Assembly (NCBI GenBank): GCA_017451625.1
Contig: JAFTNY010000033.1
Span: 13,800 to 77,799, forward strand
DNA: 64,000 nt
Direction: 5' to 3'
Source: Alphaproteobacteria bacterium
GTDB taxonomy: Bacteria; Pseudomonadota; Alphaproteobacteria; Rs-D84
The notes under the pieces were generated by a model that did not search any database, was not told the DNA's origin, and was given only the letters and a program-made list of their open reading frames with translations. Made by a program: the position numbers and the translations under genes. Of this stretch, positions 54,870 through 56,402 are shown in pieces (the stretch's first letter is position 1; every line of letters starts with the position of its first letter).

Positions 54870-56402
54870 TTACTGCATCCGTACAACGCTGCAACTGGTG
54901 CCGCTAAACTTTAACAGTTTATCACACAATGTTTGCGCCGTTTCAATATCCGCCAATGGCCCAATGCGCAGGCGATACTGACGCGCCGTCGTTGATTCTG
55001 CGCCTAATTCGCCAACGCCCTGTTCATCAACCGCAAAGAACACCATGTTTTTGTACGGTGTCAACAGCCCCTGACCATCTTCGCCACTAAACTTGGCCAA
55101 CAACATTGTCCAATAATCATCCAGTGCCTTGACCGATGTATCTGATTTCAGTTCAACCGCCACCCCAACTTGGTTGCTGGTAATCAGTGGAATATTTGTC
55201 TGTGGCAGATATGCGCCCGCGGTATTGCGTTGCTGTGGCAACATGTTTACAACACTGCCCGATGATGCCTGTGGCATCGCCTGTGGCGCAACAAACCCTG
55301 CCGGCATATAGTACCCTGCACCCGTCGCCGGATTAACGGTCTGGGTGTTGCCGACAAATACAGGTGTGCCAGTGTATCCGGTACCCATACTCATTGCGGC
55401 CATACTGTCTGTGTATGCGATGTTATTCAGTGATTGCCCCGACAGCATACTTTGTGCAACGTTGGCCTCGGCCAATGCCATAACAGATGCTGTGTCTGCA
55501 ATCAAGAACGGTTTTTCACGCTTTTTGATACATACAATACGCTGACCGCTGCGCAGAACCATATCGCCCACCGCTTCGACAATTAACAGGCGGCCGTCTT
55601 CGCCGTCTGTACGGAATCCAACTGGTGATTCCCCGCCTTCGACCAACAGGGATACAACCGGACGTTGGGTCATTGCAATAACTTTGTCGCCAAAGTCAAT
55701 ATATGTAAATATTCTGTCGCGCCACACGCGTTCTGGCGCAATTACATAGTCATCTGGGTTTGGAACAAAGATGTCCAAATCAAAGCGAAATTCTGATGGA
55801 TCAATTTTCATTGATTTTATCCATCCATAGTCTTCGCCATCCGCCCCCACAACCGACGTTTGTGGTGTTGGTTTGTTGAATATAGAACTGGCCCCACCGG
55901 ATGTGGCTGTTGCGCCACCTGTCATCGGCAACGTGCCATTACCGTCCAGCATAATATCAACCTGTGAATATGTAATTTCACTGGAATTAGACGGTTCGCT
56001 GCGCAAATAGAAAATATATTTATTGCCCGACTTGCCCGTTACAATCATATTTGTATCAGAACCTTGGTTACCGCCTGCCGGTGAAATAAACATTGTGCGA
56101 TCGCCCTGTGTTGTGTCAATGGTAAACAAATCTTTGTTTCCAACAACCGCATCTGCAATTTGTTCGCCATTTGGCAAAGAAACCATAGTTACCATACCAT
56201 TGCGCAACTTGATTGGTAAAACAGAACCCGCAGACCATGTCAACTGTGCATATCCTGGTTTGGTGCTGCCACTGGCCATATTGGCGGTTGGATTGTCCCA
56301 CGCAGATTGCACGCCGTAAACTGCGGCATATGCCGGCAATGTCAACAGGCCCGCCATACATAACATCGTTGCGTTTAACCCTAGTATTTTAACAATGCTC
56401 AT
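54870..56402 (-). CDS. virB9: Type IV secretion system protein VirB9/TrbG-like with C-terminal SPOR-like extension
   Basis: Signal peptide. N-domain '...GEQIADAVVGNKDLFTID...TNMIVTGKSGNKYIFYL'; C-domain 'RIFTYIDFGDKVIAMTQRPVVSLLVEGGESPVGFRTDGEDGRLLIVEAVGDMVLRSGQRIVCI'. An extra ~200 aa end in 'ARQYRLRIGPLADIETAQTLCDKL...CSVV'. Confidence 0.8.
   Translation of the reverse strand: MSIVKILGLNATMLCMAGLLTLPAYAAVYGVQSAWDNPTANMASGSTKPGYAQLTWSAGSVLPIKLRNGMVTMVSLPNGEQIADAVVGNKDLFTIDTTQGDRTMFISPAGGNQGSDTNMIVTGKSGNKYIFYLRSEPSNSSEITYSQVDIMLDGNGTLPMTGGATATSGGASSIFNKPTPQTSVVGADGEDYGWIKSMKIDPSEFRFDLDIFVPNPDDYVIAPERVWRDRIFTYIDFGDKVIAMTQRPVVSLLVEGGESPVGFRTDGEDGRLLIVEAVGDMVLRSGQRIVCIKKREKPFLIADTASVMALAEANVAQSMLSGQSLNNIAYTDSMAAMSMGTGYTGTPVFVGNTQTVNPATGAGYYMPAGFVAPQAMPQASSGSVVNMLPQQRNTAGAYLPQTNIPLITSNQVGVAVELKSDTSVKALDDYWTMLLAKFSGEDGQGLLTPYKNMVFFAVDEQGVGELGAESTTARQYRLRIGPLADIETAQTLCDKLLKFSGTSCSVVRMQ

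What the first reader, a model, noticed from the sequence alone, without database searches (positions are those of the whole stretch)
54870..55475. VirB9 carries a C-terminal SPOR-like peptidoglycan-binding domain
After the conserved VirB9 C-domain there are ~200 extra residues. The last ~80, 'VAVELKSDTSVKALDDYWTMLLAKF...YKNMVFFAVDEQGV...ARQYRLRIGPLADIETAQTLCDKLLKFSGTSCSVV', follow the SPOR pattern (strands flanking helices), with a 'YR[VL]R.GP' core and a Cys pair like that of FtsN SPOR. The DacC-like PBP at 3828..5039 also ends in a SPOR domain. SPOR domains bind denuded glycan at division septa, so a SPOR on a T4SS core-complex subunit would suggest septal or polar targeting or PG anchoring of the machine.
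Basis: partly seen in the sequence, partly recalled or inferred. Interest (0 to 1): 0.65.

Follow-up and report, generated by a model that had tools for sequence, protein, structure and literature searches.

The report
VirB9 with a variant SPOR tail
A secretion-machine outer-membrane subunit (VirB9) of an uncultured gut alphaproteobacterium really does end in a cell-wall-binding-type (SPOR) domain, but its key sugar-contacting glutamine is always glutamate, so it is a new variant whose binding target is uncertain.

Summary
ORF 54870..56402 (-) is a 510-aa VirB9 homologue, about 190 residues longer than the nearest solved VirB9 (TrwF, 266 aa). The extension is an almost uncharged, variable linker (326-388), a conserved motif (389-412) and a 98-residue domain (413-510).

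Four lines identify that domain as SPOR: a borderline Pfam hit; reciprocal phmmer hits to true multi-SPOR proteins; hhalign at 91.9 %; and a pLDDT 82 model whose three best PDB matches are RlpA and DedD SPOR domains.

The fusion is not an artefact. It occurs in 236 of 236 full-length relatives collected here. 204 stretches of the one-genome-per-species collection encode a relative. Three more distant alphaproteobacterial lineages also carry it. It always sits in a chromosomal virB8-virB9-virB10 operon.

The functional reading needs correction:
- The most conserved glycan-contact residue of SPOR domains (FtsN Q251 / RlpA Q270) is Glu in 235 of 236 tails and Asp in one. Q251E in FtsN reduces denuded-glycan binding.
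- The domain is net acidic.
- The Cys pair is the alphaproteobacterial helix-2/strand-4 type, not FtsN's pair.

I favour a multivalent wall tether with altered or weakened specificity over classical septal targeting. No literature was found on a VirB9-SPOR fusion. It is a new variant of a known principle (DotK, PilQ AMIN domains).

The parts
54870..56402 (-). virB9 homologue, 510 aa including the stop codon
   Evidence: ORF. Pfam CagX 76.9 bits at residues 53-294. NCBIfam VirB9 equivalog scores only 54.6 bits against a cut-off of 217.7.
56325..56402 (-). Probable signal peptide, residues 1-26 (…LLTLPAYA|AV)
   Evidence: Identified by inspecting the sequence and alignment A1. It is the least conserved region. 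No signal-peptide predictor was run.
55521..56246 (-). VirB9 N- and C-terminal domains (Pfam CagX, residues 53-294)
   Evidence: Aligns to TrwF (R388) N- and C-terminal domains. Residues 196-295 are 98 % conserved across 236 homologues.
55428..55517 (-). Highly conserved segment after the C-terminal domain, residues 296-325, with a predicted helix at 304-320
   Evidence: Commonest-residue frequency 0.95. The helix appears in the low-confidence full-length model. Whether it matches the last ~30 residues of canonical VirB9 is inferred from TrwF's length.
55239..55427 (-). Variable, almost uncharged low-complexity linker, residues 326-388
   Evidence: Commonest-residue frequency 0.63, the lowest outside the signal peptide. 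Residues 326-412 hold 2 charged residues out of 87.
55167..55238 (-). Conserved motif just before the SPOR domain, residues 389-412 (RNTAGAYLPQTNIPLI.SNQ)
   Evidence: Invariant in the close clade. Recognisable as ..LP...[IV]PL[IV] in the distant tails. Conservation 0.82. Function unknown.
54873..55166 (-). SPOR-fold domain, residues 413-510, topology β1-α1-(α')-β2-β3-α2-β4
   Evidence: Pfam SPOR 22.1 bits on the tail. phmmer hits to true SPOR proteins. hhalign 91.9 %, E 6.8e-7. AlphaFold2 pLDDT 82. Foldseek top hits are RlpA and DedD SPOR domains.
55152..55154 (-). Codon of E417, at the position of the canonical SPOR glutamine (FtsN Q251 / RlpA Q270)
   Evidence: Translation. Alignments. Glu in 235 and Asp in 1 of 236 tails. 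Among 17 true SPOR domains of the nearest non-VirB9 hits: 16 Gln, 1 His, 0 Glu.
54957..54977 (-). YRLRIGP core in strand β3, residues 476-482. R477 aligns with FtsN R285 / RlpA R309, and R479 with RlpA R311.
   Evidence: Alignment. R477, R479 and G481 are invariant in 236 sequences.
54924..54926 (-). Codon of C493 in helix α2, one half of the conserved Cys pair
   Evidence: Invariant. True alphaproteobacterial SPOR domains share the same C..L......C.V pattern.
54891..54893 (-). Codon of C504 in strand β4, the other half of the Cys pair, aligned with FtsN C312
52438..54894 (-). virB10 homologue. The listed ORF starts at TTG; the likely real start is the ATG at 54849.
   Evidence: Pfam TrbI 68.7 bits at residues 410-616. 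NCBIfam VirB10 59 bits, below the cut-off. Relatives have a 30-nt gap after virB9.
56433..57143 (-). virB8 homologue
   Evidence: Pfam VirB8 32.2 bits against a cut-off of 23.2. Same gene order in relatives.
4824..5030 (+). Canonical SPOR domain, with Gln (GVQFGAF), at the C-terminus of the DacC-like PBP (3828..5039). It serves as a comparison within the same genome.
   Evidence: Pfam SPOR 28.9 bits. Sequence.

Best explanation
The chromosomal virB8-virB9-virB10 operon of this gut alphaproteobacterium (Candidatus Enterousia-like) encodes a VirB9 with an added C-terminal module. The module is a flexible, uncharged linker of about 60-90 residues, a short conserved motif, and a 98-residue periplasmic SPOR-fold domain. 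The domain is of the alphaproteobacterial type with one Cys in helix 2 and one in strand 4.

I propose that it tethers the machine to the wall. VirB9 forms the multi-copy outer-membrane ring, so the linkers would let a crown of these domains reach the peptidoglycan layer below the outer membrane. This would fix the core complex to the sacculus, the role DotK plays in Dot/Icm.

The tail keeps the Arg pair of the basic patch and the fold. It replaces the canonical glycan-contacting Gln by Glu in every member and is net acidic. I therefore expect binding that is weaker than, or different in specificity from, classical recognition of denuded glycan, with function relying on avidity.

Shown: domain identity, architecture, conservation and operon context. 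Inferred: peptidoglycan binding, the tether geometry, and the consequence of Gln to Glu.
For: SPOR identity:
- Pfam 20-22 bits over profile positions 38-76.
- The tail alone, searched against 1.84 billion representatives, finds only 22 proteins. They include multi-SPOR proteins P0134 and P0137-P0141, which score 91-117 bits on Pfam SPOR.
- hhalign of the tail profile against a SPOR profile gives 91.9 %, E 6.8e-7, over 70 columns from β1 to β4.
- The AlphaFold2 tail model has pLDDT 82 and pTM 0.72. Its three best PDB matches are RlpA SPOR 6i09 and 6i05 and DedD 6ztg.

Reality of the fusion:
- 236 of 236 full-length homologues keep the tail, with W431, R477, R479, C493 and C504 invariant.
- 204 stretches of the one-genome-per-species collection encode a relative.
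- Distant lineages share the tail.
- The SPOR domain is as conserved as the VirB9 N-terminal domain (0.84 against 0.81), while the linker is variable (0.63) and nearly uncharged.

Precedents: DotK, a peptidoglycan-binding subunit of the Dot/Icm outer-membrane complex, binds peptidoglycan and promotes polar localisation (PMC10266036). PilQ AMIN domains recruit the type IVa pilus machine to division sites (PMC5285504).
Against: - No binding data exist.
- Glu at the Q251/Q270 position is the substitution that reduces denuded-glycan binding in FtsN. The Gln side-chain amide donates hydrogen bonds to the lactyl carboxylate and the N-acetyl oxygen, which a carboxylate cannot do.
- Positions aligned with FtsN W283 and I313, and with RlpA F274, are also different.
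- The net charge is -3, whereas the known ligand is acidic.
- The full-length model is poor (pLDDT 43.6), so the linker's disorder and reach are inferred from composition only.
- No VirB4, VirB11 or VirD4 lies in the window or within 10 kb in 84 related loci. Whether a working type IV secretion system exists is unproven.
Confidence: 0.5

Rival explanations
1. One reading: a classical SPOR function. The tail binds denuded glycan made by amidases at the septum. The machine is thereby pre-installed at division sites and ends up at new poles.
For: The fold and the Arg pair (R477, R479) of the basic patch are kept. S420 aligns with FtsN S254. The same genome has a canonical SPOR protein, so denuded glycan is probably a relevant cue there. 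PilQ AMIN domains and DotK show that peptidoglycan-binding modules can place envelope machines at septa or poles. A ring of many copies could compensate for weak sites through avidity (inference).
Against: Glu replaces the conserved Gln in 235 of 236 tails. Q251E reduces septal localisation and denuded-glycan binding of the FtsN SPOR domain. The positions equivalent to W283, I313 and F274 are not conserved. The domain is acidic. None of the 17 true SPOR domains among the nearest non-VirB9 hits has Glu there.
Confidence: 0.2
2. A repurposed SPOR fold that no longer binds peptidoglycan. It acts instead as a protein-protein module within the core complex, for example docking on the unusually long VirB10 or replacing the missing VirB7 lipoprotein.
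For: The loss of the canonical Gln and the acidic surface fit a changed ligand. A conserved motif before the domain, and a strongly conserved segment after the C-terminal domain, suggest further interaction surfaces. No VirB7-like gene is seen next to virB8 in the window. VirB10 has long extra regions.
Against: No partner has been identified. The Arg pair and the β-sheet core typical of the glycan-binding face are invariant, which is what continued glycan binding predicts. A variable, uncharged linker looks more like a tether than a fixed interface.
Confidence: 0.2
3. Chance similarity, or a gene-fusion or assembly artefact. On this view the tail is not a real SPOR-related domain of VirB9.
For: The Pfam score is borderline and covers only half the profile. 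A profile search against PDB sequences finds no SPOR chain.
Against: The same architecture occurs in 236 of 236 homologues from many independent assemblies and hosts. hhalign, reciprocal phmmer and the fold search all converge on SPOR.
Confidence: 0.02

Closest known systems
SPOR domains (Pfam PF05036): FtsN, DamX, DedD, RlpA, CwlC
   Same: The βαββαβ fold and a periplasmic location. The Y-R-x-R-x-G-P strand with the Arg equivalent to FtsN R285 / RlpA R309. The Ser equivalent to FtsN S254. The Cys in strand 4 equivalent to FtsN C312. The helix-2/strand-4 Cys pair and the W..L helix-1 motif are shared with true alphaproteobacterial SPOR domains.
   Different: The hallmark Gln is Glu. The positions of FtsN W283 and I313 and of RlpA F274 are not conserved. 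There is an insertion of about 20 residues (an extra short helix and a longer β2-β3 hairpin). The domain is net acidic. It is fused to a secretion-system subunit rather than to a division or wall-remodelling protein.
Canonical VirB9 / TraO / TrwF (type IVA outer-membrane core complex)
   Same: The two-domain VirB9 core is recognised by Pfam and aligns to TrwF. The gene order is virB8-virB9-virB10.
   Different: It is about 190 residues longer: 510 aa against 266 for TrwF and 293 for A. fabrum VirB9. It is very divergent, at 54.6 bits against a cut-off of 217.7 for the NCBIfam equivalog. It is chromosomal, next to tRNA-Trp/secE/nusG, with no VirB4, VirB11 or VirD4 nearby.
DotK of the Legionella Dot/Icm type IVB system
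   Same: A peptidoglycan-binding-type module that is part of a type IV secretion outer-membrane complex. DotK binds peptidoglycan and promotes polar localisation (PMC10266036).
   Different: DotK is a separate lipoprotein with an OmpA-like domain, described there as the fold that binds the diaminopimelate of the stem peptide. Here a SPOR-fold domain, whose family binds glycan strands, is fused directly to VirB9.
AMIN domains of the type IVa pilus secretin PilQ
   Same: Peptidoglycan-binding domains fused to the outer-membrane ring subunit of an envelope-spanning machine. They recruit it to future division sites (PMC5285504).
   Different: A different fold, placed at the N-terminus, in a different machine. 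A targeting function is demonstrated there and not here.
Rickettsiales vir homologue (rvh) type IV systems
   Same: Chromosomal, scattered vir genes in Alphaproteobacteria. A distant lineage with the same tail (L083) shows extra VirB8-like genes and a truncated VirB9-like gene. Such duplications are described for rvh (PMC2653234, listed; this characterisation is from my own knowledge).
   Different: In rvh systems virB8-virB9-virB10 are followed by virB11 and virD4 (own knowledge). That is not so here. I know of no SPOR tail on rvh VirB9.

Membership tests
SPOR domain (PF05036) | Pfam profile score at or above the gathering threshold (21 bits) | tested here: inconclusive
   20.0 bits on the whole protein and 22.1 bits on the tail alone, over profile positions 38-76 only. 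Relatives score 20.1-27.0 bits. 3 of 120 and 15 of 120 listed homologues carry a precomputed PF05036 hit.
SPOR domain (PF05036) | βαββαβ fold with a four-stranded sheet backed by two helices | tested here: met
   AlphaFold2 model with pLDDT 82: E4-11, H14-28, (H38-43), E44-51, E63-73, H76-90, E95-98. The three top Foldseek PDB hits are SPOR domains: 6i09 (E 8.4e-4, TM 0.67 normalised to the target), 6i05 and 6ztg.
SPOR domain (PF05036) | Sequence homology to true SPOR domains across the whole domain | tested here: met
   hhalign 91.9 %, E 6.8e-7, over 70 columns from β1 to β4. phmmer from the tail reaches multi-SPOR proteins at E 1.6e-5 to 9e-4 in 1.84 billion sequences.
SPOR domain (PF05036) | Conserved Gln in β1 that contacts the lactyl carboxylate and N-acetyl group (FtsN Q251, RlpA Q270) | tested here: not met
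   E417 aligns with this Gln. It is Glu in 235 and Asp in 1 of 236 tails. The role of the Gln is described in PMC6895207, and the effect of Q251E.
SPOR domain (PF05036) | Basic patch on the sheet (FtsN R285; RlpA R302, R309 and R311) | tested here: inconclusive
   R477 and R479 align with RlpA R309 and R311 and are invariant. However, the domain's net charge is -3 and the neighbouring Glu may neutralise the patch (inference). No electrostatic calculation was possible.
SPOR domain (PF05036) | Binding to denuded peptidoglycan glycan strands, and septal localisation | not testable with these tools
   Needs sacculus pull-down, ITC with synthetic glycans, or localisation experiments.
VirB9 / TrbG / CagX (PF03524) | Pfam profile above the threshold, covering both domains | tested here: met
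   76.9 bits against 34.2, residues 53-294, profile positions 5-197 of 198.
VirB9 / TrbG / CagX (PF03524) | NCBIfam equivalog TIGR02781 (P-type VirB9) above its cut-off | tested here: not met
   54.6 bits against a cut-off of 217.7. This is a divergent member of the superfamily, not an equivalog.
Type IV secretion system (VirB/D4 type) | Adjacent VirB8 and VirB10 core partners | tested here: met
   VirB8 32.2 bits and TrbI/VirB10 68.7 bits. The same gene order occurs in four lineages.
Type IV secretion system (VirB/D4 type) | VirB4 ATPase, plus VirB11/VirD4 and VirB6, encoded in the genome | tested here: inconclusive
   None is in the 64-kb window or within ±10 kb in 84 related loci. The tblastn scan is weak, since it also misses VirB9 itself. 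Whole genomes could not be scanned.

The most novel reading that the evidence does not exclude
The Glu-for-Gln SPOR domain defines a distinct subfamily that recognises a different wall feature from classical denuded glycan. One candidate is de-N-acetylated or otherwise modified glycan, where a carboxylate would be favourable. On this reading the virB8-virB9-virB10 module, which has no secretion ATPase nearby in any lineage examined, forms a peptidoglycan-anchored trans-envelope structure. That structure would be at least partly independent of a classical type IV secretion machine.
Probability: 0.12. Interest if true: 0.75.

Novelty: new variant of a known kind. Interest (0 to 1): 0.5.

Why it matters
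In type IVA systems the only dedicated wall-related component I know of is the VirB1 lytic transglycosylase (own knowledge). How these machines are fixed in, and positioned relative to, the peptidoglycan is therefore poorly understood. A large, conserved family of VirB9 proteins with a built-in wall-binding-type domain would be a natural example of direct anchoring of the core complex to peptidoglycan. It would parallel DotK in type IVB systems and the AMIN domains of PilQ.

For SPOR biology, it offers a naturally fixed Gln-to-Glu variant, the very substitution used experimentally to weaken FtsN. This gives a ready test of whether SPOR folds can evolve new ligand specificities. The hosts are abundant, uncultured gut Alphaproteobacteria of humans and livestock whose envelope biology is unknown.

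Tried and rejected
- Sequence searches of the PDB with the tail alone and with the tail profile A2 gave only chance hits (designed β-trefoils, endoglucanase). Solved SPOR domains are too distant for sequence methods.
- The full-length AlphaFold2 model from 24 close homologues was poor (pLDDT 43.6). I did not use it for the VirB9 core or the linker.
- tblastn of the tail against PLSDB plasmids found nothing.
- tblastn of A. fabrum VirB1-11 and VirD4 against the window plus 84 loci found no ATPases. It also failed to find VirB9, so it is a weak negative.
- Literature searches for SPOR together with type IV secretion or VirB9, and for Enterousia/RF32 together with type IV secretion, found no description of this fusion. 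The library excludes most subscription journals.
- The comparative SPOR preprint had nothing on the Gln position.
- I considered a lipoprotein signal in VirB9 (…TMLCMAG…). I rejected it on inspection because the residues before the Cys do not fit a lipobox and vary in relatives.
- I rejected the idea that the FtsN-type disulfide is conserved.
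Full report
**What is there**

The finding lies in ORF 54870..56402 on the minus strand, which encodes 510 aa.
- Pfam places a VirB9/CagX domain at residues 53-294 (76.9 bits against a cut-off of 34.2).
- Pfam also gives a weak, partial SPOR match at residues 470-508. It scores 20.0 bits on the whole protein and 22.1 bits when the last 201 residues are scanned alone. The cut-off is 21, and only profile positions 38-76 of 76 are matched.
- The flanking genes are a VirB8 homologue (56433..57143) and a long VirB10/TrbI homologue (52438..54894), both on the minus strand.
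- The nearest solved VirB9 is TrwF of plasmid R388 (266 aa). It aligns to residues 55-135 and 218-292. A. fabrum VirB9 is 293 aa.
The coordinates and the quoted peptide are correct.

**Is the tail a SPOR domain?**

Four independent lines say yes.

1. The last 111 residues were searched with phmmer against 1.84 billion representative proteins. Only 22 hits had E ≤ 1e-3. Besides VirB9 tails, these include proteins P0134 and P0137-P0141. Those I scanned (all but P0139) are multi-SPOR proteins scoring 91-117 bits on Pfam SPOR.
2. A profile of 18 tails (A2) was compared with a profile of 12 of those true SPOR domains plus the window's own PBP (A3). hhalign gave 91.9 % probability and E 6.8e-7 over 70 columns, from the first to the last strand.
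3. AlphaFold2 on the tail alignment gave a confident model (mean pLDDT 82, pTM 0.72). Its order of elements is β-α-(short α)-β-β-α-β.
4. Foldseek against the PDB ranks RlpA SPOR with bound denuded glycan first (6i09, E 8.4e-4, TM 0.67 on the target). RlpA SPOR 6i05 and DedD 6ztg come second and third. Generic ferredoxin-like folds follow.

The domain spans residues 413-510. It is longer than a typical SPOR domain because of an insertion between helix 1 and strand 2. NCBI's pipeline already names a C-terminal fragment of a relative "SPOR domain-containing protein" (P0125). Full-length proteins are named only as VirB9/TrbG.

**Is the fusion real and conserved?**

- The full-length protein has more than 120 listed relatives at 78-100 % identity, all about 500-520 aa.
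- 204 stretches of a one-genome-per-species collection encode a relative. The 80 kept are gut metagenome-assembled genomes labelled Alphaproteobacteria or Candidatus Enterousia, from humans, ruminants, horses, mice and other hosts.
- Starting from a distant member (P0129, 41 % identical in the tail), all 120 best hits are again long proteins of 463-529 aa that cover 93-100 % of the query.
- In an alignment of 236 full-length members the tail is always present. W431, R477, L478, R479, G481, A489, C493, C504 and Q510 are invariant.
- Conservation by region, as mean frequency of the commonest residue:

| Region | Conservation |
|---|---|
| VirB9 C-terminal domain | 0.98 |
| Segment after it (296-325) | 0.95 |
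| SPOR domain | 0.84 |
| N-terminal domain | 0.81 |
| Pre-SPOR motif | 0.82 |
| Linker 326-388 | 0.63 |

- Residues 326-412 hold 2 charged residues out of 87.
- This pattern fits a constrained domain on a flexible tether. It does not fit an artefact or a decaying appendage.

**Context**

- The window is chromosomal and full of housekeeping genes: AcrB, RecR, KsgA, LspA, YidC, LeuS, UvrD, NusA, IF-2, PBP1a, MraY, FtsW, MurG and L1.
- virB8-virB9-virB10 is transcribed divergently from tRNA-Trp (57332..57405) and nusG. Relatives have the same arrangement next to secE-nusG-rplKAJL-rpoBC.
- Three more distant lineages carry VirB9 with the same tail in virB8-virB9-virB10 clusters beside other housekeeping genes (L083, L084 and L086).
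- No VirB4, VirB11 or VirD4 is seen in the window. None is seen within 10 kb in any of the 84 related loci. The tblastn part of that test is weak.
- The NCBIfam equivalog models for VirB9 and VirB10 are missed by a wide margin.
- So this is a very divergent VirB8/9/10 set. Whether a complete type IV machine exists in these genomes is open.
- The tail has no match in 72,556 plasmids.

**The binding cleft is not canonical**

I aligned the tails with true SPOR domains and with E. coli FtsN. My recalled FtsN sequence matched PDB 1UTA exactly. The alignment gives these equivalences:

| VirB9 tail | FtsN | Status |
|---|---|---|
| E417 | Q251 | changed |
| L418 | C252 | changed |
| S420 | S254 | kept |
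| Q475 | W283 | changed |
| R477 | R285 | kept |
| C504 | C312 | kept |
| S505 | I313 | changed |

- According to the RlpA-glycan crystal structure paper, this Gln (RlpA Q270) is the one highly conserved SPOR side chain. Its amide hydrogen-bonds the lactyl carboxylate of MurNAc and the N-acetyl oxygen of GlcNAc. An Arg patch binds the carboxylate exposed when the stem peptide is removed (PMC6895207).
- A later preprint states that Q251E reduces septal localisation and denuded-glycan binding of the isolated FtsN SPOR domain (10.1101/2024.05.13.594014).
- In the VirB9 tails this position is Glu in 235 and Asp in 1 of 236 sequences, never Gln.
- In 17 complete true SPOR domains of the nearest non-VirB9 hits it is Gln 16 times, His once and Glu never.
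- The canonical SPOR domain of the PBP in this same window has Gln (GVQFGAF). The change is therefore specific to the VirB9 tail and not a property of the organism.
- The aromatic residue after strand 1 (RlpA F274) is Asp421 here.
- The domain has 13 acidic and 10 basic residues.
- This divergence of the N-terminal half explains why Pfam matches only the C-terminal half.

**The cysteines**

C493 (helix 2) and C504 (strand 4) are invariant. The same C..L......C.V pattern is nearly invariant in the true alphaproteobacterial SPOR domains. It is therefore a feature of that SPOR subtype and presumably forms a disulfide in the periplasm (inference). FtsN's disulfide is C252-C312.

**Most likely mechanism**

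VirB9 is a multi-copy subunit of the outer-membrane core complex (established knowledge of type IVA systems; R388 structure, PMC9259494, listed). A crown of SPOR-fold domains on uncharged linkers of about 60-90 residues could reach the peptidoglycan under the outer membrane and tether the ring to it.

The retained fold, the invariant Arg pair and the strong conservation argue that some ligand is still bound on the sheet. The Gln-to-Glu change and the acidic surface argue against the classical high-affinity site for denuded glycan. I therefore rank the explanations as follows:
1. A multivalent wall tether with weakened or altered specificity (0.5).
2. Classical septal or polar targeting (0.2).
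3. A repurposed protein-interaction module (0.2).
4. Artefact or chance (0.02).

Domain identity, architecture, conservation and context are shown. Ligand, geometry and localisation are inferred.

**Comparison with what is known**

Peptidoglycan-binding modules in envelope-spanning machines are known. DotK, an OmpA-like lipoprotein of the Dot/Icm outer-membrane complex, binds peptidoglycan and promotes polar localisation (PMC10266036). The AMIN domains of the PilQ secretin recruit the type IVa pilus machine to future division sites (PMC5285504).

A SPOR-fold domain fused to VirB9 was not found in the searchable literature. The principle is known. The domain type, the fusion partner and the Glu variant are new. 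I classify it as a new variant of a known kind, with moderate interest (0.5).

Noticed in passing
window 52438..54894 (-): The VirB10 homologue is very long: 818 aa from the TTG start, or about 803 aa from the ATG at 54849. It has a Pro/Glu-rich N-terminal region. About 200 residues follow the TrbI domain and are rich in cysteines, ending …CEGNVAPDANGCCPGETYTDMGEQGFNCCPDTGGDCFPPII. This is unusual for VirB10.
   Followed up: no
window 50578..51189 (-): A 203-aa Cys-rich protein with a weak Ephrin_rec_like match (24 bits). It lies two genes downstream of virB10 and may be related to the Cys-rich end of VirB10.
   Followed up: no
window 51845..52189 (-); L081 14204..14545; L082 6128..6469: A small ORF of 113-114 aa sits directly after virB10 and is conserved in relatives (…FQ.AEQ.WFWFLYS.SVRN…RRPCE.LDVET.ITKLYLSG…FGDRRRAP…). 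It has no signal peptide and no Pfam or NCBIfam hit. It may be a regulator of the operon.
   Followed up: partly
window 32772..41709: A block of six large ORFs (439, 424, 397, 495, 418 and 754 aa) without any Pfam hit at E ≤ 1e-3. The 730-aa ORF at 48356..50548 and the 433-aa ORF at 10506..11807 also have none.
   Followed up: no
window 3828..5039 (+): A DacC-type D,D-carboxypeptidase (Peptidase_S11) carries a C-terminal canonical SPOR domain with Gln (GVQFGAF). In relatives this gene lies only about 9 kb from virB10, after yidC-lspA-…-recR. In this window it is about 47 kb away, so there has been a rearrangement between genomes.
   Followed up: partly
window 57212..58384 (-): This 390-aa ORF is spurious. 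It runs antisense across tRNA-Trp (57332..57405, +) and nusG (57821..58354, +).
   Followed up: yes
L083 4026..9092: A distant lineage with the same VirB9-SPOR tail has extra genes. Two VirB8-like ORFs (330 and 246 aa, motif …YYI..[LF]IR.Y..ARY…) lie upstream of virB8, with a 54-aa lipoprotein (MAMFFLLIAGC…) upstream of them. A 283-aa protein resembling the VirB9 N-terminal domain (…ITGRDGDKYIFNLQS…) lies between virB9 and virB10. These duplications are reminiscent of Rickettsiales rvh systems.
   Followed up: partly
L086 13526..16105: In another lineage the virB8-10 cluster is followed by a CtpA-like S41 peptidase and an M23 peptidase with a coiled-coil, resembling an EnvC-type amidase activator. 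The VirB9 gene there is split by apparent frameshifts in the contig.
   Followed up: no
window 41910..47642 (+) and 47672..48220 (-): PBP1a, MraY, FtsW and MurG lie together without the murD/E/F genes usually found between them in a dcw cluster. A PagL lipid A deacylase is encoded next to them on the other strand.
   Followed up: no
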